The translations under genes and the position numbers were made by a program. From Eledone cirrhosa (taxonomy: Eukaryota), in NCBI GenBank assembly GCA_964016885.1, contig OZ024748.1, positions 39,866,001-39,930,000 on the forward strand: a DNA stretch of 64,000 nt, given 5' to 3'. Of the stretch, positions 2,433 to 62,400 are shown one piece after another; within the stretch, counting starts at the first letter, position 1; the number at the start of each line of letters is the position of its first letter. Under the pieces are notes generated by a model that worked only from the letters and a program-made list of their open reading frames with translations, was not told where the DNA came from and made no database searches.

Positions 2433-2441
2433 AATTAAATC

Positions 2442-15235: not shown

Positions 15236-15264
15236 TGTACTTATACCTATATACATACATATAT

Positions 15265-15333
<69 letters not shown>

Positions 15334-15435
15334 AAAAATGGAGTGGTTCGTTGTGGCACATGAGTTACATATGAATAAAATTCGTCCTTCATCAATGATC
15401 TTCCATTCATTGGTATTTCAGCGATTATATATATA

Positions 15436-19384: not shown

Positions 19385-19410
19385 ATGTCAACGAATCGCT
19401 ATTATATAAG
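19385..19410 (+). CDS. Candidate first coding exon of the tandem tryptophanase-like gene (MSTNRYYI-S)
   Basis: ATG followed by 26 nt ending AAG|GTAAGG, a strong phase-2 donor in non-repetitive sequence. Joined to the acceptor at 36852 it gives MSTNRYYISSDFIEPFKI, a normal N-terminal length for the family. Confidence 0.45.
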
Positions 19411-20401: not shown

Positions 20402-20523
<122 letters not shown>

Positions 20524-21041: not shown

Positions 21042-23243
21042 TTATACTTCTCTTAGGTCAGTGTTGTTTGTTTGGATGTTGTTGTTGTTCCACTCATTCT
21101 TTCTGTTTAGCTTTGGTCTTCTAATTTCTATTTCACTGGCCTCTATGATTTGCCTATCTGCTGGGTCATTCCTATGTTTAGATATTATTCTAATTTCTAT
21201 GTTGTCTATGTTACCGTCATGTTGTTGTCTAGCATGTTCGTATAGTACTGACCCGTTTTTTCGTCCTTTTAGTTCCCCCCAGTGTTGGTCTATCCTTTCA
21301 CCTATGCTACGAGCTGTCTCACCTATGTATGTTGTTGTCATGTTTCTGCAAGTACCCTCTGTACATCTTATGCTATAGACTACGTTTCTAGTTTTACAGT
21401 TTATCCGGGGGTTCACCTTACATATGATACATTTCCTATTGGTACAGTGGGTTTTCTTAAAAGGGTAGGTTTTGCTGATCAGGGATTTTATGGTGGTTCC
21501 TGGCTTTTCTACCACCTTTATTTTTAAGTGGGTCTTTCTCAGGGCCTTTCTACACTGGTTAGCTAATTTCCCTCCAGGGGTGGCGTCCACAAATATGACA
21601 CTCTGATATCTCTGGTTGTCGTACCATGATGTGGCCTTCCCTATCTTATGTCTAGCCCTATCTAAGCTATTCCATGATTTGCTCCTGTATAGTGGGCAAA
21701 TTCCTTTCATGTCCAGTTCTATGAGGGTCTTATACTTTTCCATGGCTCCTTCGTATACTCTGACTCTGTCTCTTTGGTTGTAGCCAGAGAACTGCATGCG
21801 GTTGATGAAGTGTTGGATGTGTCCTTCCATTTCTGTTGGGTCGCACATTCTGGACACATTCTTCATCACTCGTACCAAATCTGCGATCAGAATATTAAAC
21901 TTAGCACTACTGGACATCGCTGAGTTTTTGAGTATCAGGTATTTGGAGGCCATGGGTTTAGCATAGTGTGAGTGGAGAATTTGGGCTCTCTCGTCTATAG
22001 TGTTAATCCAGAGTTCTGTGTCTAATACAGGTAGTCTATTGTTAGGGTGTTTGGAAGGGAAGTCTATAGTTACAGTTATACTCTGGTGTATGGAATTAGC
22101 TATCTGCTGGATGCTTTCCATCGTGCTACGTTCTAAATCAAACTTGTTAGTGCTCTCTAGTGGGGGTGTTCTTATAACTATATTGATATCGTCTACATAA
22201 CGAGAGTACATGATGAGGTCTATGGAGCTTTCATTAAGGAGATCTTTAAGTCTCCTTTCCCACCATACCATGAAAAGGTTGGCAACATCACCAGCTATGC
22301 TGACGCCGATGGCTGCTCCCTCATTTTGGGTGTAGATTTTCTCATTGAACTTAAATATGTGGCCCTTTAGGGTAGTTTTGATACTAGCCCCTATTGCATG
22401 TGCGACCATTTTTCTTACCTGATCAGTGTTTTGGGGGGTCTGTATAGCTTTGGTCCACCCAATCCACCTTCCTATGGGAGTCTTTTTAGCCATTGAGGTT
22501 ATGGTGGGGGGTCTACCTCTTATAGGTCTACTAGGGCAGAAACATCTAAGGTCATGGCTGTCTAGGTAGTCAGTGTCGTAGGTAAGTCTAAGTAGGAGGC
22601 CCAGTTCGTCTGTGTCGACGTCGCAGAACTCCACCTCACTCTCAATGATCATCTCCACACATCTTTTCACAGCAAAATCAATGTTAATGGATGGGTACAG
22701 TGACACCACATCCATGCTGCCTATTATGCAGTTGGATAGGCTCCTGTTTTTGTTGCACTCACTGATTCTGCTGAGGAGGTCCTCTGTACTTTCACATACA
22801 TCTGGGGACATCTTGATTATGGGGCGTATAACCATTGAGAGGAAGTAGGAGATCCTGTAGTTGCTAGCTATATTAGCTCCGCATACGGGTCTTGTTGGTG
22901 GTCCTGTTGTCGGGTCGTCGACTGTCTTGTGGTCTTTGCGGAGCCCATACAAGGGTGGTATGCCATTGTTAGACGCCTGGAAGTTGTTGGCAGTGCGTCT
23001 GCCTCGCTTTAGGATGTCAGTCGACATCATCATGTGAGCGTTGAGGATTTTTTCTCTCCCATCGTGTCTTAGTTGTGCAACTTCGCTCGTGTTGGTGATG
23101 TGGGGTTGCATTGCCTCGATGTAGTTCGGCATGCTATCTATTGACATCCTACCAGACTTATCTGTGGGTAGACACACTACCTCACCATCCCTTGTGCGCT
23201 GCTTGAGGCTAACCAAGCCTTCTACAGGTTTTATCCCAAGTTG
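21042..23243 (-). mobile_element. Penelope-like element, 5'-truncated, open RT + GIY-YIG frame; pLTR at ~20515-21040
   Basis: PTDKSG, PPLYGLRKDHK, SMDVVSLYPSI, GAAIG, RYVDD, NVVYSIRC..YIGETAR; uninterrupted ORF. Confidence 0.95.
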
Positions 23244-23278
23244 TGTTCTGTTATTAATTCTGGCAATATTACGCAAAT

Positions 23279-26200
23279 ATGACCCTCCCTAAATATAACA
23301 ATATCTGTTTCGACACACGATTTCATATAAAAAACCTCGCAAAACTAATTCATCGCCGCTATGGCATTAGCTTGTGCCAAGCTGAAAGGTTATTGAAAGA
23401 CACTGTTTTCTGTTATATAAAAACTACAATAACAACAGAACAAATCCGCTTCTTAAAACACTGTGTTTCCTCCAAAACATACACAACAAACATATCAAAA
23501 CAAGTAAATAATTTATTATTGAACAAAACACAAGCTGAACGGCTAAAACACACAATAACAGTTAATATGAAAAGAACAACATACACAAAAGTCAACGCAC
23601 TCTACAGACAAAAACGCATCAACGGTAAGGAAATCCGAAATCTCATCACAGCAAACGAGAGAGATGACTTCATGAGCGTCATCCGACGCGAAACGAAATA
23701 TGCTCAAAACGAATGCTGTAGGCATTTCAAGAAGAAATTAGAATGGATGAATAAGAAAAAACTACAAGAAAGGAAAATCGAATATTCTCAAAAATACCCA
23801 GATAACATCGACAACATCCGTATGAGTGATGTAAAACTACCGGAAGAATTTACCAATGACCACACAGTAAATATCTATGGGAACACTTTAATCAGTGAAC
23901 AAGAACAACAAATCCTAAAGTTACCACCAAAATTTGCCATCTACAAAAAGATTAACCCTATGGAATGCAAAACGGAGCTGGAAAAGTGTTTCACAAAAAT
24001 ACGTTGGAATGCAAAGGTAAACAACAACAACAATAATAACGGTAGTAGTAATATAAACAATAACTCTGGGTATAGAAATAACAGCCATAACAATGGCAGG
24101 AAAGTGAGAAATAGTGATAATGGCAATAATACTAGCGATAGACAGAACAACAACAACCACAATAATAATAATAATAGAAACGTTAACCACAGACACAGCA
24201 ACAGTGACCACAGTAGTAATAACGGTAACAATACGAACAACAACAACAACAATAACCACAGTGGTAATAATGGAAATAGTACATGTAGCAACATCAACAA
24301 AAGCAAGAAACATAATAATAGTAACAACCACAATGGTAGAAATAGCAGTAACAACAACAACAATAACGGTGAAGTAAACAACAATACATCTAGCAATCAT
24401 AACAATAATAATATTAATGCTAATGATAGAAACAACAACAACCACCATGATAACAATAATAGCAACACACACAACTATGACGATAGAAATAACGACAACC
24501 CCTTAGAGAAACTATTTTTCAACCCAGCTGACAAAACATATAAGATGGGTAATATCTATCCTACGAGGTTACCCTTTAATAAAAGAGTTTGCATACCACA
24601 GCAAATAGATGACGAGACGGAGGCACAGTTCACCATAGCTAGAAATAAGATTAGACAAGTAGTAGACAGGTACACTATGAGACAGAGCAGACCAGAGGCC
24701 CAACAACTTGGGATAAAAGTATGCGGAGCTAATATAGCTAGCAACTACAGGATCTCCTACTTCCTCTCAATGGTTATACGCCCCATAATCAAGATGTCCC
24801 CAGATGTATGTGAAAGTACAGAGGACCTCCTCAGCAGAATCAGTGAGTGCAACAAAAACAGGAGCCTATCCAACTGCATAATAGGCAGCATGGATGTGGT
24901 GTCACTGTACCCATCCATTAACATTGATTTTGCTGTGAAAAGATGTGTGGAGATGATCATTGAGAGTGAGGTGGAGTTCTGCGACGTCGACACAGACGAA
25001 CTGGGCCTCCTACTTAGACTTACCTACGACACTGACTACCTAGACAGCCATGACCTTAGATGTTTCTGCCCTAGTAGACCTATAAGAGGTAGACCCCCCA
25101 CCATAACCTCAATGGCTAAAAAGACTCCCATAGGAAGGTGGATTGGGTGGACCAAAGCTATACGGACCCCCCAAAACACTGATCAGGTAAGAAAAATGGT
25201 CGCACATGCAATAGGGGCTAGTATCAAAACTACCCTAAAGGGCCACATATTTAAGTTCAATGAGAAAATCTACACCCAAAATGAGGGAGCAGCCATCGGC
25301 GTCAGCATAGCTGGTGATGTTGCCAACCTTTTCATGGTATGGTGGGAAAGGAGACTTAAAGATCTCCTTAATGAAAGCTCCATAGACCTCATCATGTACT
25401 CTCGTTATGTAGACGATATCAATATAGTTATAAGAACACCCCCACTAGAGAGCACTAACAAGTTTGATTTAGAACGTAGCACGATGGAAAGCATCCAGCA
25501 GATAGCTAATTCCATACACCAGAGTATAACTGTAACTATAGACTTCCCTTCCAAACACCCTAACAATAGACTACCTGTATTAGACACAGAACTCTGGATT
25601 AACACTATAGACGAGAGAGCCCAAATTCTCCACTCACACTATGCTAAACCCATGGCCTCCAAATACCTGATACTCAAAAACTCAGCGATGTCCAGTAGTG
25701 CTAAGTTTAATATTCTGATCGCAGATTTGGTACGAGTGATGAAGAATGTGTCCAGAATGTGCGACCCAACAGAAATGGAAGGACACATCCAACACTTCAT
25801 CAACCGCATGCAGTTCTCTGGCTACAACCAAAGAGACAGAGTCAGAGTATACGAAGGAGCCATGGAAAAGTATAAGACCCTCATAGAACTGGACATGAAA
25901 GGAATTTGCCCACTATACAGGAGCAAATCATGGAATAGCTTAGATAGGGCTAGACATAAGATAGGGAAGGCCACATCATGGTACGACAACCAGAGATATC
26001 AGAGTGTCATATTTGTGGACGCCACCCCTGGAGGGAAATTAGCTAACCAGTGTAGAAAGGCCCTGAGAAAGACCCACTTAAAAATAAAGGTGGTAGAAAA
26101 GCCAGGAACCACCATAAAATCCCTGATCAGCAAAACCTACCCTTTTAAGAAAACCCACTGTACCAATAGGAAATGTATCATATGTAAGGTGAACCCCCGG

Positions 26201-27130
26201 ATAAACTGTAAAACTAGAAACGTAGTCTATAGCATAAGATGTACAGAGGGTACTTGCAGAAACATGACAACAACATACATAGGTGAGACAGCTCGTAGCA
26301 TAGGTGAAAGGATAGACCAACACTGGGGGGAACTAAAAGGACGAAAAAACGGGTCAGTACTATACGAACATGCTAGACAACAACATGACGGTAACATAGA
26401 CAACATAGAAATTAGAATAATATCTAAACATAGGAATGACCCAGCAGATAGGCAAATCATAGAGGCCAGTGAAATAGAAATTAGAAGACCAAAGCTAAAC
26501 AGAAAGAATGAGTGGAACAACAACAACACCCAAACAAACAACACTGACCTAAGAGAAGTATAAATAAGTAAATAAAATTAAATAAAATAAGATAAACAAA
26601 TACATACACAAGCACATAAACACACACTAGTCACCCAGCAGACACAACACTATACACACTAGTCACACATCACACATAACACTATACACACACGCAAACG
26701 CATGCGCAAAGAAGACAAAATAAAATAAGATAAACAAACAAGCAAATAAATAAATAAATATATAGACAGACTGAACAAAAAAAATGGCGTAGACATACAA
26801 CACAACAGGAGGAACAATGAATATAACACCACTGACGATGTTGCAGATGTGCAACGAAAGATTTATGTAAATTATGTAAACTAGATATATGTGTTTGTGT
26901 CTATATTGTATCTGTATTATTTTTGACCGCCGGTCAGTCAATGGCAACATTGAGGACCGAGTAAGTTAGATCGCAGATATATATATATAAAAGACAGCGA
27001 GAAGCGAAAACCAACCAAACAGTGAGTGTGTTCTGTTATTAATTCTGGCAATATTACGCAAATATGACCCTCCCCAAATATAACAATATCTGTTTCGACA
27101 CACGATTTCATATAAAAAACCTCGCAAAAC
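23279..27130 (+). mobile_element. Penelope-like element, 1094-aa ORF (23279-26563) with Asn-rich insert and internal in-frame deletion, followed by pLTR and tail
   Basis: Same RT and GIY-YIG motifs; 27025-27130 repeats the ORF start region, the typical pLTR arrangement. Confidence 0.95.
26827..26870 (+). ncRNA. Hammerhead core in the Penelope pLTR (copies at ~10751 +, ~20740 -, ~31185 -)
   Basis: CTGACGA-T-GTTGCA-GATG-TGCAAC-GAAA-GATT-TA; stem I is weak. Confidence 0.65.
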
Positions 27131-27421
27131 TATATATATATATATATACATATATACATATATATATATGTATATGTCTCTACGTAACATGTACATAAAT
27201 ATGCAATATACAAAGCAAAGAGGGTGTGGTAAGGAACCAGGTGGACCAAAATGCACCAGAGTACTCAATACTTTGGGGAGTAGAGTGGGTAAAAGGAAAA
27301 GAGTCAGGACCCCGACGGCTGAGCTCCGGCCGTTTCAACAGCTAGATCCGAATTCGAATATATATATATTACAAGAACAGATTAAAGTTTAATCTGTTCT
27401 TACAATAAATATTTGCTCTAC

Positions 27422-29411: not shown

Positions 29412-30678
29412 AAAGTTTTATTTAAGATTGTTGGGTTACAACGAGTAAATATTTTATAACTGATATAAAGCACTCAACAAGTTTGGGACTAGATATACGA
29501 TATTAAACAAATGGAAACTATATTTGTAAAACCATATTTATTTCATTATACATATTTCAGGGATACCATATTAAAAATATGTCATGCCTTCTTCAGATAA
29601 AATACAATATATAAGCAGTTTTATAAATAAATTTGACGTACCATAAAATATTGATCAACTTCCATTTAAAAAAGTTGGTTTGGTAGTGAAATGTTTGTAA
29701 ATATTTAGTGTTAAGCACAGTTAGAAAGAAAGACGTAGAGAAGGAATAAATGTATGTAAAGAAAAACAGAGAGAGATAGAGAGAGATATGGGAGAGAGAA
29801 ATAGTGAGGAGGTGAAAAATGAGAGGCAGCTGAGGTAACAGGTGAATAATAATAATCATCATACAAATTGAGAGATTTAGGAGGGAGGGAGTACTGTAAT
29901 TATTTATTTATTTATTTATTTAGTTATAGTGTTAAGGAGACGGAGATAAATAAAAAATAACTAAAGAGAAAACAGCGATACTTAGATTACATCATGTATA
30001 GAGGGAGGAGAAGAAAGCTATATCTAGAGAGAAGGATGACAGATTTACAATTTTACGTTATGTCCCATCATTTTGAATTATCAATTCATATGAATTGGGT
30101 ATTATACTGTAAATATCAATATCCATGAATGAGACATAGATATATAAAAATAATGACCATATGTTTAGTTTAAAAATTCTCAGGTCTATATACCAAAACC
30201 TGAGATAAAACTTCAAAATACATAAGTATATATGTACTTACCGGAAAAAGAAAGAAAGAGAAAAAGAAAAAGAGAAGGTCATCTCAAGTTCTAGTTGACA
30301 CTATAGATATACACGTGAACATACGTGATCAACTCTGTAATTTCTTATTTCACATGAAAAAATGTTTCCCTTGCGTTATAAAAGATTTTACTATATATAT
30401 ATATACATACATACACATACATAAACATATATATTAATATTAATATTCCTGCCCTCACATACATGATTATCGTTCATGTATAGTTCATGTATCGTTCATG
30501 TATCGACAAGTAACAGTACACAATAACGCACTTATGACAGGCCAGAGATTTACGTGGGAGGTGATCTACCATAAATAACATCAATCCTACGAAACATCTG
30601 CCAAACCAACAAGAAACAGCCATGGATTTCTCCGATCTGTAAGAAAATCTTCTTTTCAATATTTTTTTCGAAATTATA

Positions 30679-31887
<1,209 letters not shown>

Positions 31888-31943
31888 TATATGTATATAT
31901 ATATATGTATATATATATATATACATATATATATACATACATA

Positions 31944-32555
31944 CAGGGGTTGGACAAAATAATGGAAACACCTAGCATCATAGAATCATAATTTTGAAAT
32001 ATCTATAAAACCGTCAAAAGCTTGTTTATTTTTATTGTTCTCGAGGTGGTCATTAATTTTGGTAGTAATTTTGGTAGTAATTTGGCAGTAATTGTGGTAG
32101 TAATTTGGCAGTAATTTTGGGAGCTGTACTTTTGTGATCCTTTCTAACAATTCGCGTAAGAGTCCGACGGTATCTATCTGAAAGTTTTGGTTTTCTTCCG
32201 GAGTTTTGTTTCGACGAGGAGGTTTTTCCCTCTTTCTCAAAGACTGTCATTACTTTCGAGACAGTACTTCTTGATACACCAAACATTTCGGCTGTTTTCG
32301 TTACGCTAGCGCCTGCCATACGAGCACCAACAATTTGACCTCTTTGAAAGTCCGATAGATCTGTCATTTTAATGAATTTTAATTACCTTTTTCTGATGAT
32401 ATCTGGAGAGAAACAGCAATTTAAACAAATCATATTAAGCAACACTAATAATAAATAAAAAAAAACATAAAAATAAACAATCTTTTGACGGTTTTATAGA
32501 TATTTCAAAATTATGATGCTATGATGCGAGGTGTTTCCATTATTTTGTCCAACCC

Positions 32556-32558
<3 letters not shown>
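31944..32558 (-). mobile_element. Internally deleted Tc1-type DNA transposon
   Basis: ~90-bp TIRs beginning CAGGGGTTGGACAAAATAATGGAAACACC, flanked by TA; ORF 32053-32367 encodes the Tc1 HTH region (DLSDFQRGQIVGAR..GRKPKL) with no DDE domain. Confidence 0.93.
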
Positions 32559-32590
<32 letters not shown>

Positions 32591-32593
32591 ATG

Positions 32594-32710
<117 letters not shown>

Positions 32711-32755
32711 GTGACGAAACATAAGTCAATTGCATGAACTCATAATCCTTTATTT

Positions 32756-32811
32756 ACTGCTATATATATTTCGATGATAGCCATTGAGTGGCTATGACCT
32801 CATCAGGCAGT
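32756..32811 (-). ncRNA. Intact minimal type-I hammerhead ribozyme, PLE-type
   Basis: ACTGC-CTGATGA-GGTCATAGCCA.CTCAA.TGGCTATCATC-GAAA-TATATA-TA-GCAGT. Confidence 0.85.
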
Positions 32812-32879
32812 TAGTAAGTTCTTAGATATGCCAGCTCTGTGCTTATGGTGTTGATTGTATCAGAGCCTTGGGGCATATC

Positions 32880-32935
<56 letters not shown>

Positions 32936-32988
32936 ATGTATAATATATATATATAATGTATAGCTATACACTGTATATATAATCATAC

Positions 32989-33030
<42 letters not shown>

Positions 33031-33083
33031 GTATGATTATATATACAGTGTATAGCTATACATTATATATATATATTATACAT

Positions 33084-33141
<58 letters not shown>

Positions 33142-33591
33142 CATATTCCAGCATAGCTACGTCCGTTAACGATCTTAGTTCAAATCCCGACGAGGTTGAC
33201 TTTGCCTTTCATCCTTACTGGGTCGATAAAATAAAGAAGCAGTAATGCACTGGGTAATTGCTGGCCTTGTGCCAAAAAGATGAAACAATTATATATATTT
33301 ATATAATATATAATATAGATATGTATATATATAATGTAGTGTGTGTTAGTGTGTATATATGTATGTATATATATATACATATGTGTGTGGGTGTGTAACA
33401 ATTGTTCTCGGTATGGTGAACTAACTGTTGTGTTAAAGGGTGAAAGCAGCGATTCTTTGCTTAAACTTTAATCTGTTATTTTAATAAATATTTCCTCTAG
33501 GGTTCTTATATATTTGATATATATTTATCCTTATCGAGCCCTCTTTGGATTTTAGTCTTCATATTTATTATTATTATTACTATATATATAT

Positions 33592-34415
33592 ACTAGCTGA
33601 GGTACCCGGTTATACCCGGGAGCGGGAGTATTCCCAGTTCCCATTAAAATGCCCAATGCCTCTCAGACTAAAAATGAAATACAAATATACGACAGATAAT
33701 CAAAAGCGAAGACAAATTCATTTACGAAACAATAATACAAACAAATATTGTTGATTACATTGGTCAGGTGAAAATATGTTCGTCAGAGAAGTTGAGTGTT
33801 GCTATAAATAAACAAATAGAACCCCATTAGGGTGTCTCAATATTATTGACATTTGCTGAAATTTTGTGAATAGATATCATATCTTGTCATTTACCTATGA
33901 TTTAAATTTCATATAAATCGAAGGGAAAACATTTTCAGTGGGGGTTTTCAACGGGGTTTTGTGCCCCTAGGGACCCTTTGATTAAAATGAAATATACTTA
34001 TCGAAGTACCCTGGGCAATGTAGTTTTAAAATATATATGGTTATGGGGGTCTATCTCCAAAAGCATAGGAGGAGTTCGTGAAATCTTGTTCCATTTATTG
34101 GCCAAAATGTTCACTATAGGGGGTTTAACCCCCAATAGGGTGTCTTAATATTATTGAAATTTGCTGAATTTTTGTGAATAGGCATCATATCTTGTCATTC
34201 ACCTATGGTTTAAATTTCTTATAAATCGATGGGAAAAAATTAAGCGGGGGTTTTCAGCAGAGGTTTGAACACCCGGGGAACCCTTTGATTAAAATGAAAT
34301 ATACGTAAGAAATCAAATGGGCATGAGCCCCCACACACGTGTCAAGCTACATCAAGATCCGTTTGTTAGTTTTTGAGTTTTAGGTTCACAAACAAACAAA
34401 CAGACAGAAATTGTC

Positions 34416-34425
<10 letters not shown>
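33592..34425 (-). mobile_element. Non-autonomous Helitron-like element with internal duplication; related fragment at 44875-45127
   Basis: Hairpin CCCGGGTATAACCGGG followed by CTAGT at the 3' end; (TTTG)n near the 5' end. Confidence 0.6.
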
Positions 34426-34463
<38 letters not shown>

Positions 34464-34959
34464 TATAAAGCTAACGGCCGTATGTATGTAACAAACTTTT
34501 CGCCAAACGGCTGGACCAAACAGAACAAATTTGCACTATAGATGTAACTTTTTCCAAGTAAAAAAGTGAGGGTATTTTTGTCTACTGAATTTTGTTAAAA
34601 GATTAAAGACATTATTTAAATATTCGCTTCTTTAAAATTTCAAATGTCAACACTTCCTGTTATACGACATTCCTCACTTTTTTTCGTCGCACAACATTCC
34701 CCTCTTTTTCTTAGTCTGTCTTTTTAGATAGATATAGGGCTATAACGTAGCGTCTTTATAATATGTCTCTGTAGGTCTGGCTGTCTGTATTAGATAACGT
34801 TTTTCGAAATATTTACTTCTGGGTTCACAGATTGATTTTTTTTAGTTTCAGAAGTTAAGGGTGAAAGCCTTTGCTTAAACATTGTTATTTTAATATATAT
34901 ATTCGTGTACAGATATTTTGCATACACAAAAACAAAAACCTATTTATTTCACTAAAGCA

Positions 34960-35410
34960 CAGACGGCTTATCGTCATTGTTACTGTTCGAGGTTAGAGGA
35001 CCACAGTCTTTCCAAGATCTGAGAACCATCAATAGCCATCAATGTTCCACTTACCGTTTGGCTTGCCAGATGCGTGGTTTGTTACACAATGACACCTATT
35101 GGCACCTCACCCTGCAAGAAGCAGCAACTGCTAAAATCCCTTCTCAGCTGCGAAAACCTTTTGCTATTATGCTGCACAACTGTGATCTCGCCACCCCGAA
35201 AGTCTAGCTGCGGACATCCTCCACCGCACACGCAGACACAATCCGAGCGTAACATACGATGTCGTTTTCAATGAGGCGCTCATCTGTCTTGAAAACAGTC
35301 TCCTGGAGATTGATGGTAGGCTTCTAAGTCACTACAGCTTACCTGCTCCTGGCAGGAGTGTCCTGAGGTCAATGTCTACAGAGCTTCTCCGTGAGATGAG
35401 CTACGAGATC
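34960..35410 (+). mobile_element. Helitron RepHel coding fragment (pseudogenised)
   Basis: LLFEVRGPQSFQDLRT..YRLACQMRGLLHND..W..LQEA..QLR resembles the conserved Rep-helicase linker of Helitrons. Confidence 0.8.
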
Positions 35411-36394
35411 AGTGCTTCTCCAGTGGTCAATTGTATGTAGGATGCTCTAGGGTGAGCTCGCCAAACAATCTCTTCATCTTTGCTCCGGAGGGCTGAACAA
35501 AAAATATTGTATACTCTGAGGCTCTAACAATGTAATTTAAATATTTTCTGTTACTTGGAATTTTCATTTTGGTTGTACAAATTATTGTTTGTTAAAAAAT
35601 ATGTTCTCTGTTCAGCCTTTATTGTTGTAACTCTCAATTATCTTTAACGTACTGGCTGCTGAACTGGGGAATCCTAAAACTATTCAAACCCAACATCAGA
35701 GCACGTTAACCATTTGGATAGTGAAAGAAAAAGAGAAAAATTTCAAATCTTTTATGAGGGATATGCAAATGAAGTAGAAGGGTAGACTGAAAATATCGTT
35801 ATATTTAGACGCCAGGTACATTTAAATAATTATTAGGATACTTTATAAAAGAAGATGAAGCAGAAGAAGGAAGAAAGATAGGCTCATATTATTATTAGGG
35901 TGCAAGTAGATTTAAAAATTTAAAATGTGTTGAAGTGGTAGAATACTAAACCAAAAAGTTTTCAATATATAACCAAATCATGAGTTATAATATATATATA
36001 ATGTATATAATTATTTTTTAAGGAATTAAGGTTGTAGGTACACTTTAGCTTATTATATTGCAACCAGTCAGTTTAGCTTATTATATTGAAACCAGTCAAT
36101 TTAGCTTATTATATTGCAACCAGTCAATTATATACATATTTATATAAATAGATAAAAATATATACATGCTGTTATTAATTCAAATATAATTTAAGGGTTA
36201 CGAAGGATATTTTCAATATGTAGTTAAGAAAAAAAAGTCCAAGATGGCACGGATGGGGTGGTCAGGAAGGAGACGTCCATACCATAATGCCAATGTAAGA
36301 CAGTAGCTATTGTCATTTTATCGTGTCAGTTGATATTACGTTAAATATAATTCTGGTTTTATCTGTGATTTACTGATATAGCTTACGTCAATTG

Positions 36395-36790
36395 TTTCTT
36401 CTTCATCCAGTTATTTCTGAGAGGGTCGTGGGGTCAGAGTCCTCCAACACTCCTTCCAGCAAGTCAGGTCAGAAGCAACCGTTTCCAACTGATCCGGCTG
36501 GATCTCCCAAGCATGACCAGCCAAGCTCATGGATCTTAGCAAACCATCTTACTCAGGGTGGGTCGATCCCTGGGTCTCTTGTCAGTTTGTTTTGCCCGTA
36601 AAATCTGTCCGGTGATTCTTTCCTGAGACATTCTAACCACATGTCCATAGTATCAGAGCTGTGATCTCTCAATTCGGAGAAGTAGCGGCTCTACCTGGAG
36701 TAACTCTCTGATCTCAGAACTACGCACTCTATCGAGTAACATTACTCCAAAGACCCTTCAGAGGAATCCCATTTCGGCCGCTTGTATTGT
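36395..36790 (-). mobile_element. RTE-type LINE 3' fragment
   Basis: Similar to 40075-40870 and 46030-46250; ends in a GAAGAAGA tail. Confidence 0.65.
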
Positions 36791-36852
36791 TTCTATTTAC
36801 GAAATAACACAACTGAGGATTTTAATAGTGTCAAATTTTCGTTTCCTTTCAG

Positions 36853-38328
36853 TTCCGACTTTATCGAACCATTTAAAATACATATTGTAGAGAACATAAA
36901 GATCAATAACCGTAACGACAGATTAATTGCTCTCGAGAAAGCTGACTACAACATCTTTAAATTACAACCTGAAGATGTCATGATCGATTTCCTTACAGAT
37001 GCTGGCACTAATGCTTTCAGTCTTGAACAAAACGCAAGAATATGGATGGGTGATGAAAGTTATGCCGGATCTACTAGTTATGAAACTTTGAAAGACACGG
37101 CAACATATATTTCTGGTTTTGAAAACATTCTGCCAGTTTTTTCTGAATGTATCAGCGAAGAGATTGTCGCTTCTTATTTCACAAAAGCTGGAGATAAGGT
37201 TATTGGGAATACTTTTACTTATTCACTTGAGAAGCATATAAAGGATCTTCATGCTGAAGCGATTTCTTTGTTAGATTGGTCAGATAATAATTTTGCAGGA
37301 AATCTAGATGTTCAAGCACTCAAAAACTTATTGGCAGAAAATGATAAAAAATCAATTTCCTTTCTTATAATGAATGTACCAGCAAAAAGTAGTGGTGGCC
37401 AACCAGTTAGTATGTCAAACATGAAAGCAGTTTCTGATCTCTGTCGCGAACATTCGATTCCGATATACATCGAAAGTAGTATGTATGGTGAGAACTGTTG
37501 GCTCAATAAAATGTACGAAGAGGCTTACTTCAATAAATCGTTAGTTGAGATATCGCAAGAAATGTTTTCTTTTTTCGATGGCTGCATTATTTCTGCTAAA
37601 AGAGATGGTAGAAGTGAGATTGGAAGTGTCATTTGTCTTCAAGACAAAGAAATGACTCGAAAATTGGGCACTGTTATTACTCTTAAAGCAGGTTTCATAA
37701 CTTATGGTGGGATGGCTGGCCGAGATATGGAAATGGTAGCGGTTGGCATGCGAGGTGCTTTGGATGAACAACTGCAAGACTATCGACAAAAACAATTGGC
37801 ATTTTTCAAAAGATCCCTGAAGGAATTTGGTGTTCCGATTGTGGAGCCAGTCGGTTGTAATACCATCTTCATTGATGCCGAAAATGCTTTTCCTAACTGT
37901 AAACACGCGTTTCATCCAGCCTGGTCTTTATCTTGTGCTGTTTATATCGTCGGGGGTATCCGATGCGCAGAGTTTGGTCAAGTTACTCGTCCAACAAGCA
38001 GCTTACCCACTAATCATTTTCTGAAAGACCGAGAATTACTAAAGCTTGAGATACCTCGTTTCATCTATACGACTTGTCACATTTTCTATGTTGCCTATGT
38101 TTTCGCTCAGCTTATTTCACATGAAATGCTTTCTGGAATGAAACTTATTGCCTGCTCCGAAGACCAAATAAAACTCGTGAAAATAAAAATGAAACCAAAT
38201 CATTCTCTGGAATATGACGATATCCAACTCCTTCCGGTACAAGACTGTGAACACATTCACTTCTTTAAAAACATATCTAATCAAAGAGTTATGAAAAGAA
38301 ATTCAATCGCCGAGGCATCTTCTATATG
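36853..38328 (+). CDS. Tryptophanase/tyrosine phenol-lyase-like domain 1 exon (catalytic Lys replaced by Arg) plus linker
   Basis: EPFKI, IDFLTDAGT, GDESYAGS, GGQPVSM, TYGGMAGRDME motifs; acceptor tttcctttcAG|36853; donor TG|GTCAGT at 38329. The open frame continues to a stop at 38407. Confidence 0.9.
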
Positions 38329-38887
38329 GTCAGTCGACATTCCTTCTTTTAAAAAGGGGACAAACACGTTAGATAATGTAATCGTAGACACAAAAAAGAC
38401 GTGGTAGTCATGATTGGAACGTCCCTGATCATAGAATTGCTCTGTCAATGTTCACCTGAACTTAAACAACAGCAACAACAACACAGAGATTTTTTTTGTT
38501 GCACCCAAACAGGATTCTGTAAATTCTAGATTGTACATTCTTTTATTCTTTTACTGGTTTCAGTCATTAGACTGTGGCCATGCTGGGGCACTGTTCTTTT
38601 ACTGGTTTCAGTCATTAGACTGTGGCCATGCTGGGACAGTGGTCTTTTACTGGATTCAGTGATTCTACTGTGGCCATGCTAGGGCACCAATTGATTGTTA
38701 GTTTGTTTTTTTTAATTGGTTTTATTCCCAACAATTAAACTATTGAACATGATTTTGAATAGAAAGTAGGGGAAAACATTGACAGTCTTGTCAAATATAG
38801 TTTTAATATTATGTTAACAAAAAAAGGAAATAAAATATCTTTGGAAACTTAAATATATTTCTTGTGATGTTCTTTTTACAATTATTT

Positions 38888-39170
38888 CACCAATATATAA
38901 TTAATATCAAACATTGTGATGTATGTTTCACCAATATATAATTAATAACAAACATTGTGATGTATGTTACACCAATATATAATTAATATCAAACATTGTG
39001 ATGTATGTTACACCAATATATAATTAATATCAAACATTGTGATGTATGTTACACCAATATATAATTAATATCAAACATTGTGATGTATGTTTCACCAATA
39101 TATAATTAATATCAAACATTGTGATGTATGTTTCACCAATATATAATTAATATGAAACATTGTGATGTGG
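38888..39170. repeat. 41-42-bp minisatellite, ~7 units
   Basis: caccaatatataattaatatcaaacattgtgatgtatgtt repeated. Confidence 0.9.
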
Positions 39171-40074
39171 TTGTGATAATTCGGGGAAAGATGGTACAAC
39201 GAATATTAGATAAACTAAGGTGAAAAGATACGACAAATCAGCATTTTAAACTTTTGTCTTATATTTCTTGATATTTTGAGGTGAAAAACTTTTTTCAAAA
39301 GAAAGAAATGGAGTCTGGTGTTGTCAACGCCCAAAGAATTGTTGATAAACGATTTATTTACATCAACTTATTATTGATGGTGAGATGCTTTTGTTTCACT
39401 TTAAAAAAATATTATAATAAGGTGACATACTAATATAAATATTATTTTAAAAATAAAAAACAAATCTTGAAACATCTTATGACTGTGGCAGTGGCAAGGT
39501 TTATAGAGTTAAGAAGCCTCACAACCATCTGATTTCCGGTTCCTTTAGACTACATGGCATCTTAAAGAAGTGTCTTTCTGCCATAGGTTCGAGTCAACAA
39601 AACGGACAGTTTGCCCTTTTCGGCTTGGCGGGCAGCAGGGCCTGGACTGGTGGTGGAATGCACCAGGTTGGTACTTGCAATTAATTGTAATATAACTGAT
39701 AGATGTTGTTTCAATTCTGTGCCATTAATTGTAGATCAACGACAACATTGTTGCAGTAGTTATTTCAATTCTGTGCCATTAATAATCTGTGTTACGAACA
39801 CTACATAAATAGTCTACAGGTGTTACCTTGATTTCACCAGATGGAAATATCAAAATCAAAATTGATTATGTAATTGTTCCAAACAATATTCTCGAAATGG
39901 TGAAAAACTGCCATGTGTATATTTCTACAGATATTGGTCTAGAATATTTCAACTTAGAGACTGGAAAACACAAACGTTATTATCATAAATGTACTGTGAT
40001 TGTGTGAGGCTTAATTATTAAAGATTGTAAAATCCATTCCCAGTGAATTGGTCAAACTATATCCAAGAATTTTC

Positions 40075-40875
40075 TTTTTCTTCCTTCACTTATTCCTGGG
40101 AAGGTCGTGGGGGAAGAGTCTTGAAACACTCCTTCTAGCAGGTCCTGTCAGAAGCAACCATCTCCAACTGATTTGGCTGGATCCCCAAGCGATACCTGCC
40201 AAGCTTATGGATGTTATCCAACTATCTTGCTCAGGGTCTACTCCTGGGTCTCCTGCTGGTTGGTTTTGCCAATAAAATCTGTCCAGTATTTCCTTGGACA
40301 TTCTAGCCATATAATATGTAATATCAGAGCTATGATTTCTCAATTCGGAAAAGTATCAGTTCTACCAGGTGTGATTCACAAGTCTCCAAGCTACACACAC
40401 TATCGAGTAATGATACTCCAAATACCCTTTTGGAGGAACCCCATTTTGGCCACTTGTTTTTGTGATTGTATTCTTTCAGTCATTACACAAGATTCATGAC
40501 CATAGGTAAGGGTTGGCACGAAAACCGAATTGAAGATAGTGAGTTTGGTGTTTACACCTACCTCCCTTCTTCTGATTACCAAATACCAAAGCTGTCACAT
40601 TACTGCGGCAGCTCCTGCAATTATTGCACTTAATTCGGCCTCCTGCCTTCCATCACTCGTGACCATGGCCCTGAGATACTTGAACTTCTCTACCAACTTC
40701 AGTAGAACTCCCTTCGCATGTAGAATGCACTGCGCAGGCTTCCTTTAGAAGACGAGTGTCTCAGTTTTCACAGCACTGAATTTCATTCCAGCCATGCATC
40801 ACTCTGCATCAAACCTATCAAGTGCAAGTCAGAGATCACCTTTTGTTGAGTTTGTAACACCATGTTGTCTGCAAA
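40075..40875 (-). mobile_element. RTE-type LINE fragment (RT C-terminus)
   Basis: KFKYLR and TKLTIFNSVFVPTLTYGHES motifs. Confidence 0.8.
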
Positions 40876-40966
40876 TTCCAGCCACAAATTGCTGGCCATG
40901 TGCCTAAATTAGAAAACCTTATTCCTGCAAAAGGTCCTGTTAATCCTTAATTATTATTAAATATAA

Positions 40967-41222
40967 CATATATACAAACTGGAGCTGTGTCAGGGACCAG
41001 TCCGCAAACATATATACAAACTGGAGCTGTGTCAGGGACCAGCCTGCAAACATATATACAAACTGGAGCTGTGTCAGGGACCAGTCCGCAAACATATATA
41101 CAAACTGGAGCTGTGTAAGGGACCAGTCCACAAACATATATATAAACTGGAGCTGTGTCAGGGTCCAGTCCGCAAAAATATATACAAACTGGAGCTGTGT
41201 CAGTGACAATGTCTGCAAACAA
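40967..41222. repeat. 42-bp minisatellite, ~6 units
   Basis: catatatacaaactggagctgtgtcagggaccagtccgcaaa repeated. Confidence 0.9.
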
Positions 41223-41546
41223 TGAGTTGAAAATTTTAACACCAAGAAATATATGATAAATAAAAACTACAGTTAACAGATTTTTGTGTTTTGAATTACT
41301 AAAGTGACACGTGTACAATGTAATTGGTATATATATATATACTCTCTCTATATGTATGTGTTTTTATATAAATATGTAAATATTTGTGTGTATATATATA
41401 TATATTGTTGTTATATAGTAAGGTGTATTATTGGTTGTGTCATACGGTCCAATAAACTTTTGTTAGCAATATTAAGTTCTCCACGCTTTTGTATATCTCC
41501 AATTCCATTTAAGGGAACAGCTAGATGATGTAAAACGGAGTATTTG

Positions 41547-43129
41547 TATCAAAATAAAGATCCGAAAGCATGGTATAAATTTCCAATCATTTTAATCACA
41601 ACACGTTTCAATAAGGGATAGATCGATCGTGTGGTCATGATCGATTATCACTGATTTCATCATTCTTAACTGAGCGTGTAATACGTCTATTTACTAACTG
41701 AGAGAACTCTATGGTTAGGGTATTCTAAACCTTCCTCAGGATTTTTGGAAAGTAACCTACCACTAACTGCCCCCTTTTTACCTTAGCCATAGAGTTCTCT
41801 CAATTAGCAAAAAATAGACAATCACACACTCAGGTAGTAGACAGCTAAGATCGTTTGCGCACCTACACACTGTACTCGGTGTGTTTCCACAGAGTTCTCA
41901 CAGCTGAGTGCATATTTACCATTACTTTAGAATACCTAGTTAGTAAATAGTTAGAACAATTACACTCGCAGTTAAGACCGATTACGCGCATTCACCATTA
42001 CTTTAGAATACCCTAACCATAGAGTTCTCTCAGTTAGTAAATAGACGTATTACACACTCAGTTAAGAACGTTACGCTCTTTATACATAATTCTACACAGT
42101 ACCCGGTTTCTTTAGACACAGAGTTGCCACAGTTATGACCAGTCATGATCTTGTCGATTGAATACTACACTAGGTTTTGGTCTGTGATCCTCTAACCAAG
42201 GAGTGCTCACAGTTTGCTGAATGGACAATACTACTTACACGCCATCAATGGACTTACACACATCCCCGGGGTTTTGTTATTTTATTTTGTGTTGGGTAAC
42301 ACACCTCCACCACTCAAACACTTATCTTAAAGGCCCGAGGGAAAACGCACACACTGACACCTTAACTCAAATACCCAACCCTACATGGAGCCCCTTGTTG
42401 GCCTACATGGCAGGTGCTTGCACGCACAGACTCGGGGACCCAGATTCTCAACGGGACAACGGCACATATAGAGTTCGATACGAGCTGACTACTTGCTCTA
42501 CACATGGATGTGTATATACCAAAACATACACTATTTAGACGATACAGATGTTACAATTCAATCGATACACGTATAGCAGAACGTTGAAGGGAATTTACTT
42601 GCGTGTGTATAGTGTTGTGGTTGACCCAATTTTTTTCTAATTTACATCGTGAAAATTGAGATTTGACCAATATAACGTTTGTTGTTTTGTAACCTAACTT
42701 TTGGTGCATACTGTGTTGCTGTGTATATTTTTTTTTCTCTGACCTCGCGTCGGTGTGTGTGAGTGTGTGTGCACTCAATAACACTAATTGTGACGGACCA
42801 AAATTCTACAGATCTGGTGCTGAGATTAGACCTGTCCAGCGTCTTTTACAGCTATTGAGAGATAGAGACTTGATAGATTTATGACCCTGACTGAAGACAA
42901 TAGCAGTTGTCGTGTTTTGGCTGCTGATTATTCATATGGGGAACAAAACTCCAGTGAGTGAACATCGTTAGTTTTTCCTCCCTCATATCAAAGATTTCAA
43001 GACATTTCATTATTCACCTGAGATCAGTGATAATCGATCATGACCACACGATCGATCCCTTATTGAAACATGTGTCGTGATTAAAATGATTGGAAATGTA
43101 TACCATGCCTTCGGATCTTTATTTTGATA
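41547..43129. mobile_element. ~1.6-kb intronic element bounded by ~110-bp inverted repeats
   Basis: 41547-41657 is the reverse complement of ~43022-43129; internal repeats of agagttctctcagttagtaaatagac. Confidence 0.7.
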
Positions 43130-43165
43130 TATATATATAAAACTGAATTTACATTTTTTTTCCAG

Positions 43166-44555
43166 TCTCCAAGCAATGGAACCTTACAGGATTAAGGTAT
43201 TTTATCCAGTCAATTTAATCCCCAAGTCTGACCGTATTGCATGTCTAAAAGCTGCCAACTACAACCCCTTTCTACTTAAATCGAAAGACATATTTATAGA
43301 TTTGCTAACAGATTCTGGTACAGGAAGTCAAAGCAGTGCCCAGTGGTCGGCTATGACTAAAGCCGGCTATTCAACTATTAATTCCGAATACGTTAAGGAA
43401 TTTGTACGTACAATTCAACACATTACCAATTTCAAACATGTATTTCCAGTTCATCAAGGTCGAGGAGCCGAAGGTTTGTTGGCAAAACTCCTACTGAATA
43501 AAGAGAGTGTTGTACTGAGTAATTCTCTCTTTGACACAACACGAGCACACGTTGAGTCATCTGGTGCAATTGGAATAGATTTGGCAACAAAGTCTTCAAA
43601 ATTCTTAGGTGATGCCGATGTGGAAAAATTTGAAGAAACACTGGATGAATATGGTTCTAGAGTTCATCTTGTAATAATAACCTGCACCAATAATGTGGTA
43701 GCCGGAGCTCCTGTGAGCATGCAAAATATAGAAATCATAACAAAATTATGTCGAAACAAGAATATCCCAGTTATAATGGACGCATGCCGTTTTGTTGAAA
43801 ATGCTTATTTTATCAAGACCTTAGACGAAAAATATTCTAAACACACAATCTTAGATATTGCCAGCGAAATGTTTTCTTATTTTGATGGTGCAACTATGTC
43901 TTTAAAGAAAGATGGTATGAGCAATGAAGGTGGGTTTATAGCTTTCAACAACGACAAATGGGCCACCAAAATATTTGACATAATCGAATATAAAAGTGGT
44001 TATTCAACTTACGGGGGAATAACTGGATCAAATCTTGTAGCATGTACTGTCGGAATTTCTGAGGCTATGAACGAAAATTACCTCCGATCAAGAATCTATC
44101 AGGCTAAATTACTGGCTGATTTCTTGGAAGATAATAATATTCCCGTATTTAAACCAGTAGGGGCCCATGCCGTCTACGTGAAAGCAAACAAAGTCTTGCC
44201 ACACCTTGATTTCTTGAAGTATCCAGCATGGTCCCTTAATTGTGCCGTATATATCGAAGGTGGTATTCGATGTGCAGAAATTGGCAATATAATGTTTGGT
44301 GAAAATTCAGATGGAACAAAACAAATTCATCCCTTTGAATATGTGCGTTTGGCTTTACCCAGAAGAACCTATACGGTCAACCATCTGCATTTTGTGGCCA
44401 AAACTTTTGGTTTTGTTGCCAAAAAAGCCCATTTAATCCACGGAATGGAAATTGTCAAATCTTCGCATCTCCTAAGACATTTCACAATTTGGATGAGACC
44501 ATTAAATGAATACCACCTTGAAAAGAATAATAATCAGAAAAAAATAAACTGTTGA
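43166..44555 (+). CDS. tnaA: Tryptophanase-like domain 2, terminal exon (PLP lysine intact)
   Basis: EPYRIK, DLLTDSGT, HQGRGAE, FDTTR, DACRFVENAYFIK, MSLKKDG, EIG, VRLALPRRTYT, LRHFT; acceptor ttttttttccAG|43166; an in-frame ATG is also present at 43176. Confidence 0.93.
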
Positions 44556-59459: not shown

Positions 59460-62400
59460 ATCAATTTTCCCCTCGTCCTACTGCATATGAAAGTCTGCTG
59501 TCCAAGTTGGTGGTTTGCGACTTCTTTGCGATCTCCGCAGTGTTGGGGTGGCACTTTGGGTTTCCTCTTCCTCGGAGTCCGTTGACACAGTGATTCTACG
59601 GACATCCAGGACATGACGTGGTACTCCGTCCAAGGACACATTGTTCTGGGAATTTACGGCCGTCACCGTTCCCCTTCCCCATTGAGATGTGCAACGTGCA
59701 TATGGGGGCTTAACCCAGACTTCTTCGCCCACCTGCACGAATGCACTCTCTCTCCCCACTGGCCGTTGTGATGGCGTGCACGGGTGCCGCCACTCGTATC
59801 TGAATACTGCTCTGTGTGGCACCGATTCCTCGACCTGTCTCACCCGAGGGGACATGTTGTACCAGAACACTGCCTCCATTGGTGAGATATGGCCCCGCTC
59901 CGCCATTGCCTTGATCGTCCGGTGGTGTCGCTCTACAATTCCATTCCCGCTCGGCCTGTGCGCTGCTCTGAAGAAACGGTCCACCTTCCATCCATCGAGC
60001 ATCTCCCTCAGCGCCTCCGAGCGCAACGCTGCGCTGTTGTCCATCAGCAGTTCGTCCACAGGGCCCCGCTCCAAGAACACCTCTCTCAACGTCCGCATGA
60101 TTTCCTCGGCCGTTCCAGTCTTCATCTCCCTCCATATCGCCATCCGTCCTGATCCACAGTCGACCATCGAGAGGTACGTTCCCTGTCGGTAGTGCGTTAC
60201 ATCCACCGCCAATCGCTTCCAGTCGCGATCCACCGGGAGGCTTTCCGTTTCATGTACACCCGGGGCGGGATCAATGGACTGACATCGGACGCAGCCTCTA
60301 ACCACCCTTTGAACACTGTGTCTGTTAACGTCCGAGTCGATTCTCCTGGCTAGGAACAGGCTCCTATCCACTCCCATGTGGTGCAAGTCATGCAACCCTT
60401 TCAGATCCGACTCGGTCAGCCGACACACGGCAGCTATCTCATCATCTACCTCCTCCGGTGCTTCCATCCAGGCTTTATTCACCCTAGTTAAGACGTCCGC
60501 CCTATTTTTCTCTGAGAGCACGAAAACTACACTCAGCTTCGGGTCGAACTCGGTGGCCAGCTCTCCTAAAGTTCCCAGGCAGCGCTTTATCAGCATCTCC
60601 GCCGCCCCTCTCGTTCGCACTCTCTTCTCACTGGTGAGCACTGATCTCACCCATCCGAGTAGAGTAGCCGAGTCGGTGCGTATCTCGATGGATGCGCATT
60701 CCCCACCGCAGGGCGAGGTTCACCCCTCTCAACACTGCGTCCAGTTCGGCTACATTGATGTGGTTGCAGTCGTCCTTCTTCATAAGCCAGGCTGCATCCT
60801 CGACCTCAACACCTCCTATCTCCAACGTGACACACAGCGCTATGCTGCTGGCATCGCACCATACGGTCCCGCTCTGTGATTTGGGAACATACCACCCTCC
60901 CCACGATCTCGTGCATCATGGCCATCTCTTGACATAGCTGCATGCCGTCCGGAGCCACCCAGCAATCGGGTAGTCACCCACCAACTTTCCACACACCGAG
61001 AAAAGCTCCCGCCTACTCATACTTGGGCCCAGTTCTGGAACTTCATTTCCCCTCTGGAATACCAAGACGCCCGTCCTGTCTCGCCGTAGCCTAAGTCCCA
61101 GCGCGGCTCCTCCCTCCAACGCTTCTGACGGCTTCGCAGCCAGTCCATACCCCTGTAAATGGCTCGTGACCTCCGCCGCCGACACCACAAACTCGTCCAC
61201 TAGGATGTCGTCAATGTAGGAGTTAGTGGCCCTCTTCATCTTGTCGGCCTTTCCCAGAATAGCCTTGAGGACCACCGCCATGATCTTCGGTGCGGAGCTC
61301 AGCCCGAAACCGAGCCTGGTCAGGCAATGTATCCGGCCCTTATACCTGACCAGCTGATACTGCCAGAGCTTCTCATCTATATGCAATTGCAAGTATGCCG
61401 ACTTTAGATCTACGATTGCTGAACCCCCGTCATGCGTCTCCACTCAAGCAGGGTTTCCCACACAGACATCCGTGACCTCGCCACTCGTGTGGCATGACAC
61501 GTGCTCGTTCAACTCCCGAAGGTCCAGCACCGGCCTCACCTTGTTCTTCATGGGTTGCGCCACCGCCATTAACGGCAATACTCCGCACTTCACCTCCTCT
61601 TTCCGGGGAAGCAGTATGCCCTCCTCAATCCATCACTCTACCTCTCGCTCGAACTCGCCCCTAATGTTTCCCTTCAATGTGTGTTGATAGCAGCCCACTT
61701 TGGTCTTCAGTGTTGGTGGTTCTCCCTTCCAGTACCACTCAACAACCCATCGCTGCCTATCGAACACGGCCTTGAAGTCTTTGTCCTGCACAGTGTAAGC
61801 GGGGTATTTCTCCTCGTGGGCCTTCTGGTTCTCCTGTCGCGTACTCACAGCGCATACCGATGCAGCGGCGCCAAACGACACACCGACGTTGTTCACTGAC
61901 GCCTCCTAGACGGCGAATTGCGTCCATGCCCATAACCACGCCGATCCCATCCACCACGCTGTCTACTACGATGGCAGAAAGCCTTATTTTCCTTCCCCGT
62001 ACCGGCATTTCCATCTCGCTGCGATCTCGGCATTCAATTTTCGTGCCATCGACTGCCCTTACGCTGCTCTTCCCTCTTCACCTCTGCGCCACCCCCGCGA
62101 TCACCAGTGTCGTCGTACAACCCGTGTCCACGAGGGCTCGCTGTGGCATTCCCCTCACGAAGACACCCACCATGGAGAGCGCCTCTACTCGTAACGGGAA
62201 ACTACCGGCGCAGTAGTTCCCCTTGGATCGTTTCCCTGGTCGCAGTTAGTAGCGATGTGGCCTGGTCGCTTACACCGGTAGCATATTATTTCCGGCCTTG
62301 ACTCTCTGCAGTCTCTAGCCATGTGCGGGCCCTGGCACCGAAAACAGCGACCTCTAAACGTTCGTGGGCGACCGCGTGCCGTGGTTGCCTACCTTTCACC

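What the first reader, a model, noticed from the sequence alone, without database searches (positions are those of the whole stretch)
38320..43180. Phase-compatible intron fuses the two lyase ORFs; the domain-1 exon is symmetric and skippable
Seen: donor TG|GTCAGT (38328/38329) and acceptor ttttttttccAG|T (43165/43166) join as TG+T, reading ..SSI-C-LQAMEPYRIK in frame with a ~45-aa linker. The domain-1 exon is 1476 nt (phase 2-2), so skipping it would give an in-frame domain-2-only isoform. Both acceptors sit 4 codons before the EP motif, suggesting tandem duplication of one exon with its acceptor. Alternative: two separate genes forming a heteromer.
Basis: partly seen in the sequence, partly recalled or inferred. 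Interest (0 to 1): 0.7.

Follow-up and report, generated by a model that had tools for sequence, protein, structure and literature searches.

The report
Two half-enzyme exons, not a fusion
An octopus-type gene has one tiny shared first coding exon and two large last exons, each encoding a tryptophanase that has lost the half of the active site the other kept; they are most likely made as two separate proteins that pair up rather than as the proposed fused protein, a design that appears already published for cephalopods, with the unit here repeated about ten times.

Summary
The splice arithmetic is right, but the fusion is not supported. The first coding exon is 30622-30638 (MDFSDL), not 19385-19410. 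It matches the shared N-terminus of the Octopus RefSeq isoforms X1 (ORF1 type, A) and X2 (ORF2 type, B), so the common phase-2 acceptors need no fusion intron. An RNA-like contig starts at acceptor 36853 and reads straight through the proposed donor; it comes from a paralogous copy with the same donor context, and contigs can drop minor forms. Octopod A orthologues stop about 17 codons before that donor. A keeps the in-trans Tyr74/Tyr307 but lacks the PLP lysine; B keeps the PLP site but lacks Tyr74. An A:B heteromer with one working site per pair is the best mechanism. Yuasa 2023 appears to have shown this for cephalopods (title seen, content recalled). Additions here: about ten recent tandem copies, 5 with all three coding exons open, and the same division of labour in 60 of 69 two-domain proteins, otherwise apparently bacterial, which the trees place as an independent origin. 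A minor fused isoform is not excluded (about 7%).

The parts
30622..30638 (+). Shared first coding exon, coding part: ATG to donor CT|GTAAGA, phase 2, encodes MDFSDL. Its 5' end is not determined.
   Evidence: The only M[DNE][FY]x[DE] match in six frames of the window; same N-terminus as O. bimaculoides and O. sinensis X1 and X2; present in the other copies
30639..36852 (+). Intron from the leader to acceptor A (GT..AG)
   Evidence: Sequence; leader+A is open, 523 aa; the X4 contig stops fitting exactly at 36853
36853..38407 (+). Last exon A, coding part: tryptophanase-like subunit that keeps Glu72, Tyr74 (37061-37063) and Tyr307 but has Arg for the PLP Lys270 (37601-37603). 8 of the 10 copies stop about 20 nt after 38328; this copy has 2 extra bases and a 19-aa longer tail.
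   Evidence: codon positions read
38329..38334 (+). Proposed donor GTCAGT. It lies in the lineage-specific C-terminal tail of A and is not used in the contig seen.
38408..38850 (+). Likely 3' UTR of A: contig to 38563, low X4 cover to about 38900, AATAAA at 38829
   Evidence: the exact end is a weak hint only
43166..44555 (+). Last exon B, coding part: subunit that keeps the PLP and substrate residues (Lys270 at 43908-43910, Asp137, Asp227, Arg230, Arg419, His463, Phe464) but lacks Glu72 and Tyr74
   Evidence: leader+B is open, 468 aa, 52.7 kDa
19385..19410 (+). Possibly a non-coding 5' exon; unresolved.

Best explanation
One gene most likely splices its 17-nt first coding exon (30622-30638) to either last exon A (36853) or last exon B (43166), making two separate tryptophanase-like chains; A keeps the residues that act across the dimer and lacks the PLP lysine, B is the mirror image, and the two are predicted to pair so that B binds PLP and tryptophan while A supplies the catalytic tyrosine. 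Each A:B dimer would have one working site, and the enzyme would release indole, pyruvate and ammonia from L-Trp. Shown: exon sequences, phases, residue pattern, orthologous N-termini, a contig that starts at acceptor A and reads through the proposed donor. Inferred: that X4 is RNA, the leader-to-A and leader-to-B joins in this species, heteromer assembly, and tryptophan as substrate. The pair likely arose by tandem duplication of the single large last exon of an ordinary molluscan tryptophanase gene.
For: RefSeq X1 and X2 of O. bimaculoides (XP_014791032.1, XP_014791033.1) and O. sinensis both begin MDFSDL and continue into A or B; that exon is in the window in phase 2. Run X4 has no depth over 38915-39558, where the two larger runs do. 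It holds one 1740-nt contig laid on 36853-38563 with 29 unaligned letters at the 5' side (tables 2, 3, 8). 29 plus the T with which both A and B begin is 30, what a branch between two last exons gives in a 31-mer assembly (inference; k recalled, letters not shown). X4's word share of 0.35 fits A plus B (0.31-0.33), not A alone (0.16-0.18). Octopod A orthologues end at the FFK(H/N/D)(I/M)-like motif, 5 of 5 examined, about 17 codons before the donor. Residue table: all 6 A rows have Tyr74, Tyr307 and Arg at 270; all 7 B rows have Lys270, Asp137, Arg419 and His463 and lack Tyr74. Tyr74 and Tyr307 act on the neighbouring subunit's PLP (PMC2770544, passages; PMC11301627, passages). A and B nest with chiton, bivalve and coral single-chain enzymes.
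Against: X4's kind is not on record. The X4 contig matches the copy at C8:39.127 Mb at 15 of 15 listed sites and the window's copy at 1 of 15, so it does not show what the window's own copy does. That copy also lacks about 3.3 kb just upstream of the leader. Contigs drop rare forms. A and B as sister groups has only 83-87 support in quick trees. No binding or activity was tested here.
Confidence: 0.85

Rival explanations
1. Alternative last exons are the main products, but this lineage also makes a minor fused A-B chain through the 38329 donor, made possible by loss of the ancestral stop of A.
For: The join is open and in phase. The stop seen in other octopods is gone here, so the frame reaches the donor. 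The order A then B is the order in 60 of 69 two-domain proteins. Contigs can drop minor branches.
Against: The contig reads through the donor unbroken. Donor-like sites of this strength occur about 1.9 per kb. Orthologues stop earlier. The donor is the same in 10 of 10 copies, but these differ by only about 1% and so show no selection.
Confidence: 0.07
2. One reading: the fused 108-kDa chain is the main product and exon A is a skippable cassette.
For: Phase compatibility. One annotated two-domain cephalopod protein exists, Argonauta hians GAB1609293.1.
Against: Read-through contig. RefSeq gives separate X1 and X2 chains. No roughly 960-aa octopus protein among 4331 longer candidates or in the search up to 972 aa. 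The Argonauta model has the opposite order (B then A) and cuts B before Arg419 and His463, which looks like a prediction artefact in a tandem array (inference).
Confidence: 0.03
3. A and B are two separate genes with their own promoters, or A is a non-catalytic regulator rather than a supplier of the catalytic tyrosine.
For: B has an in-exon Met before Glu-Pro and is annotated from it in some records. Leader junction letters were not seen.
Against: Same leader peptide on both chains in two species. A has no in-exon start near its acceptor (SDFIEP), and its contig is spliced there. A keeps exactly the in-trans residues that B lost, also in the 44%-identical P0320.
Confidence: 0.05

Closest known systems
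Cephalopod tryptophan indole-lyases, TIL-alpha/TIL-beta (Yuasa 2023, J Mol Evol 91:912, PMID 38007709)
   Same: Title seen in a reference list; the paper is not held. Recalled, not checked: two cephalopod TILs from one duplication, each inactive alone, weakly active as a co-expressed heterotetramer. A and B are 72-84% identical to the octopod proteins.
   Different: Whether that paper describes the alternative-last-exon layout I could not check. The roughly tenfold tandem repeat and the longer tail of A are features of this genome.
Octopus RefSeq tryptophanase isoforms X1/X2 (XP_014791032.1 and XP_014791033.1; XP_036366181.1 and XP_029647098.2)
   Same: Same leader MDFSDL, same two bodies, same residue losses.
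   Different: A here runs 23-24 aa (most copies) or 42-43 aa (window copy) further; about 10 copies of the unit.
Bacterial tryptophanase / tryptophan indole-lyase TnaA (EC 4.1.99.1; E. coli, P. vulgaris 1ax4)
   Same: Full-length match (NF009709 above its cut-off for both); B has Asp137, His463 and Phe464 as in TnaA.
   Different: TnaA is a homotetramer with four complete sites; neither A nor B has a complete site, and both fall below the TnaA and TPL equivalog cut-offs.
Two-domain bacterial 'tyrosine phenol-lyase/tryptophanase' proteins of about 840-940 aa (e.g. P0004, P0011, P0014)
   Same: N half keeps Tyr74 and lacks Lys270, C half the reverse, in 60 of 69.
   Different: Single chain; TPL-like Thr137 and Phe463; common origin with A or B rejected (AU p 0.00013 and 4e-64).
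Serine palmitoyltransferase LCB1/LCB2
   Same: PLP heterodimer in which only one subunit has the PLP lysine and a single active site is proposed (PMC3794620, passages).
   Different: Different family and reaction; two separate genes.

Membership tests
Beta-eliminating lyase family (PF01212; tryptophanase subfamily NF009709) | Whole-protein score above the curated cut-off | tested here: met
   A 394.8 and B 495.1 bits against 285; PF01212 127.9 and 180.5 against 27
Canonical homotetrameric tryptophanase TnaA | Equivalog cut-off (TIGR02617, NF053783) | tested here: not met
   277-391 bits against 750-826
Canonical homotetrameric tryptophanase TnaA | PLP Schiff-base Lys270 and catalytic Tyr74 in the same chain | tested here: not met
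   A has Tyr74 but Arg270; B has Lys270 but Thr at 74
Canonical homotetrameric tryptophanase TnaA | Indole-binding Asp137 and His463/Phe464 | tested here: met
   Met in B, not in A
Tyrosine phenol-lyase | Thr and Phe at the places of Asp137 and His463; TIGR02618 cut-off | tested here: not met
   B has Asp and His; 318 and 382 bits against 720.7
Cephalopod split TIL pair | Orthology to the two octopod paralogues | tested here: met
   A and B each form a 100-support group with Octopus and Argonauta proteins
Cephalopod split TIL pair | Complementary loss of in-cis and in-trans active-site residues | tested here: met
Cephalopod split TIL pair | Inactive alone, active as a heteromer (recalled from Yuasa 2023) | not testable with these tools
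   Needs expression and assay
Alternative last exons of one gene | Same upstream exon joined to both acceptors, each exon with its own stop and 3' end | tested here: inconclusive
Single-chain two-domain lyase (as in bacteria) | Transcript joining A to B in frame | tested here: not met
   The only contig over exon A reads through the donor; minor forms are not excluded

The most novel reading that the evidence does not exclude
This lineage lost the ancestral stop of subunit A, exposed a phase-2 donor at 38329, and now makes a single-chain A-linker-B tryptophanase beside the two separate subunits, arriving independently at the N=tyrosine donor, C=PLP holder design of the bacterial two-domain lyases, while the unit was being amplified tenfold.
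Probability: 0.07. Interest if true: 0.6.

Novelty: new member of a known kind. Interest (0 to 1): 0.3.

Why it matters
The proposed fusion would have been a new protein architecture in an animal, but the evidence points to the known cephalopod split enzyme. What remains useful: (1) a shared first exon ties both obligate partners to one promoter and makes their ratio a matter of splicing and polyadenylation, a clean case for studying how homomers become heteromers; (2) the same split recurs in two-domain bacterial proteins of separate origin and probably tyrosine specificity, which my nine literature searches did not turn up as a described family (none was aimed at it alone, and most subscription papers are not held); (3) the recent tenfold repeat raises the question of indole production in this octopod, though half of the copies are damaged and the one RNA-like contig comes from the outlying copy.

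Tried and rejected
No RNA holder is listed on record for the stretch; this is no evidence either way. Careful trees did not finish; only quick trees are reported. Rows left out: 24 of 86; 34 rows used, 23. Four long proteins that the motif split missed were recovered. Contig depth of the unit (about 67-93) against stray repeat contigs (about 5-10) fits many copies but is not a copy number, so I do not rest on it. Rejected: 19385-19410 as the coding first exon (no match to orthologous N-termini; joined to a candidate acceptor at 30541 it stops after 20 codons). Rejected: descent of A and B from the bacterial two-domain proteins. Rejected: the Argonauta 847-aa model as support for a fusion. Rejected: bacterial contamination (splice sites, a 60.6-Mb contig, animal orthologues). 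The O. bimaculoides transfer list (PMC6011040, part 1 of 2 read) names no tryptophanase among its 12 gene labels. Yuasa 2023 could not be read; no supplements of any paper were opened, and that paper's figures may already show the exon layout. Earlier-finding look-ups by sequence and by words returned nothing.
Full report
Observation. The window holds two long single-exon ORFs on the + strand, A (36740-38407) and B (43128-44555). Both score above the cut-off of the tryptophanase subfamily model and below the TnaA and TPL equivalog cut-offs, and they are 30% identical. The joined frame is open, 960-963 aa and about 108 kDa. Donor-like sites of the same crude score occur 26 times in 13.8 kb of this gene, so one in the right phase in the tail of A has about an 8% chance of arising anyway.

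The first coding exon. The closest named proteins are Octopus RefSeq isoforms: X1 (A type, 480-481 aa) and X2 (B type, 465-467 aa) in O. bimaculoides and O. sinensis. All four begin MDFSDL and then enter A or B. A six-frame search of the window found one such peptide, ATG 30622 to a phase-2 donor after 30638. Leader+A gives 523 aa and leader+B 468 aa. The stretch at 19385-19410 encodes a different peptide. It has a strong donor and 7 copies in the genome and may be a non-coding 5' exon, which I could not test. A shared leader forces both acceptors into phase 2, which removes most of the apparent coincidence.

Transcript evidence. Four runs of one study hold the stretch; three were laid on 36500-41300. 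X1 and X3 cover all 30 bins. X4 is 16 times smaller, has no depth over 38915-39558, and holds one 1740-nt contig that fits 36853-38563 with 29 letters left over on the 5' side. I infer that X4 is RNA. The contig runs unbroken through 38328/9 into the sequence after the stop. The 29 letters were not displayed; 29 plus the T shared by the first base of A and B is 30, the overlap left by a branch between two downstream exons in a 31-mer assembly (inference). X4's share of words, 0.35, fits A plus B (0.31-0.33) and not A alone (0.16-0.18).

Orthologues. The five octopod A sequences examined (O. bimaculoides, O. sinensis, O. vulgaris, Argonauta, one unnamed) all end at the motif that here reads FFKNI, about 17 codons before the proposed donor. 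A conserved fusion through this donor is therefore not possible; the tail is particular to this lineage. The search among longer proteins gave 69 hits of 4331 candidates and no Octopus protein of about 960 aa. The one cephalopod two-domain record, from Argonauta hians, has B before A and cuts B short of its substrate arginine and histidine. Its neighbours in locus number are two more B-type models, so I read it as a prediction artefact in a tandem array.

Mechanism. On E. coli TnaA numbering, A keeps Glu72, Tyr74 and Tyr307 and has lost Gln101, Gly102, Phe136, Asp137, Asn198, Asp227, Arg230, Lys270, Arg419 and Phe464. B keeps all of those and His463, and has lost Glu72 and Tyr74; Tyr307 is Tyr or Phe in B. 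The pattern holds in all 6 A rows and 7 B rows for Tyr74 and Lys270, and in a distant unnamed A-type protein at 44% identity. In solved tryptophanases Tyr74 and Tyr307 contact the PLP of the neighbouring subunit, and Y74F is nearly inactive (PMC2770544, passages); Tyr-72* of P. vulgaris comes from the other chain of the catalytic dimer (PMC11301627, passages). A title in a reference list reports rescue of activity by hybrid dimers of H463F and Y74F mutants (Phillips 2002, title only). So A:A would bind no PLP, B:B would lack the proton donor, and A:B would have one complete site. Asp137 and His463 point to tryptophan. This is inference; no complex was folded and nothing was assayed.

Origin. 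Quick trees place A and B inside a group with chiton, bivalve, coral and Gordionus single-chain enzymes (support 97-99), as sisters with support 83-87. Of 106 long proteins held, 69 have two lyase domains; 60 of these have Tyr74 without Lys270 in the N half and the reverse in the C half, and 9 differ, one of them the Argonauta model. Those that carry names are bacterial; the set was retrieved by similarity to A or B and is not a census. Grouping A with the N halves or B with the C halves is rejected (AU p 0.00013 and 4e-64, 23 rows, LG+G4). The split therefore arose at least twice.

The array. The window is G000:C8:39866001-39930000. Ten full-length A copies and nine B copies lie between 39.12 and 40.14 Mb, plus two inverted partial A copies (counts are lower bounds). 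They differ by 3-16 of 1476 nt (A) and 0-14 of 1389 nt (B), with 17 synonymous and 38 non-synonymous variant codons, which suggests a recent, weakly constrained amplification. Five units have leader, open A and open B (39.12, 39.70, 39.84, 39.90 = window, 39.95 Mb). The others carry frameshifts, a stop, inversions, or lack the leader or B. The window's copy alone has 2 extra bases at 38347, absent from 9 of 10 copies and from all three runs' contigs, and lacks about 3.3 kb upstream of the leader.

What is known. Octopus tryptophanase genes are listed in PMC8537960 (passages). [quoted passage not shown] I confirmed the title in a reference list but could not read the paper. From memory it shows two cephalopod TILs that are inactive alone and active as a heterotetramer. 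The closest functional analogue outside the family is serine palmitoyltransferase (PMC3794620, passages). Other papers seen: PMC10170061 (passages), PMC6011040 (part 1 of 2), PMC13342648 (one reference passage); the rest as search listings only.

Verdict. The fusion intron is most likely a chance reading. The locus is an orthologue of the known cephalopod split tryptophanase, encoded as alternative last exons and recently amplified. Interest 0.3.

Noticed in passing
G000:C8:39.12-40.14 Mb (L001-L022, L026-L034): About ten near-identical tandem copies of the gene unit, mostly 35-65 kb apart, half of them damaged; the one RNA-like contig matches the outlying 39.127-Mb copy.
   Followed up: yes
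window 1-2911 and 60838-63765: 97.5% identical direct repeat 60.8 kb apart inside an LTR-type retroelement (RT and integrase hits below cut-off). The spacing is about one array unit, so such elements may have helped unequal crossing over (inference).
   Followed up: partly
P0004-P0064, P0192-P0243, P0321-P0352: Two-domain TPL-like proteins, bacterial where named, with N=tyrosine donor and C=PLP holder; P0002 and P0003 show a partly reversed split.
   Followed up: partly
window 30483-30502 against L053:6182-9460: The window's copy lacks about 3.3 kb just upstream of the leader exon, including a pyrimidine-rich tract; this may impair its splicing or expression.
   Followed up: partly
window 38347-38348: Two extra bases found only in this copy extend A by 19 aa; a private variant or an assembly error.
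   Followed up: partly
window 20431-27175: Two inverted, 98.7% identical copies of a retroelement ORF (748 and 1101 aa; weak RT hit in one) between 19410 and the leader exon, absent from the 39.12-Mb copy. It looks Penelope-like to me (recalled resemblance, not tested).
   Followed up: partly
L049, L050 (C8:39.803 and 39.749 Mb): Two copies keep the 19385-19410 stretch but lack the leader exon; there it could splice in phase 2 straight to A, giving a different N-terminus.
   Followed up: no
P0074, P0001, P0307 (Argonauta hians): Three consecutive gene models with B-type sequence suggest a tandem amplification in Argonauta too.
   Followed up: no
   Followed up: partly
window 11818-15364: Broken LINE-type retroelement on the minus strand (RVT_1 above cut-off, zf-RVT just below).
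   Followed up: no
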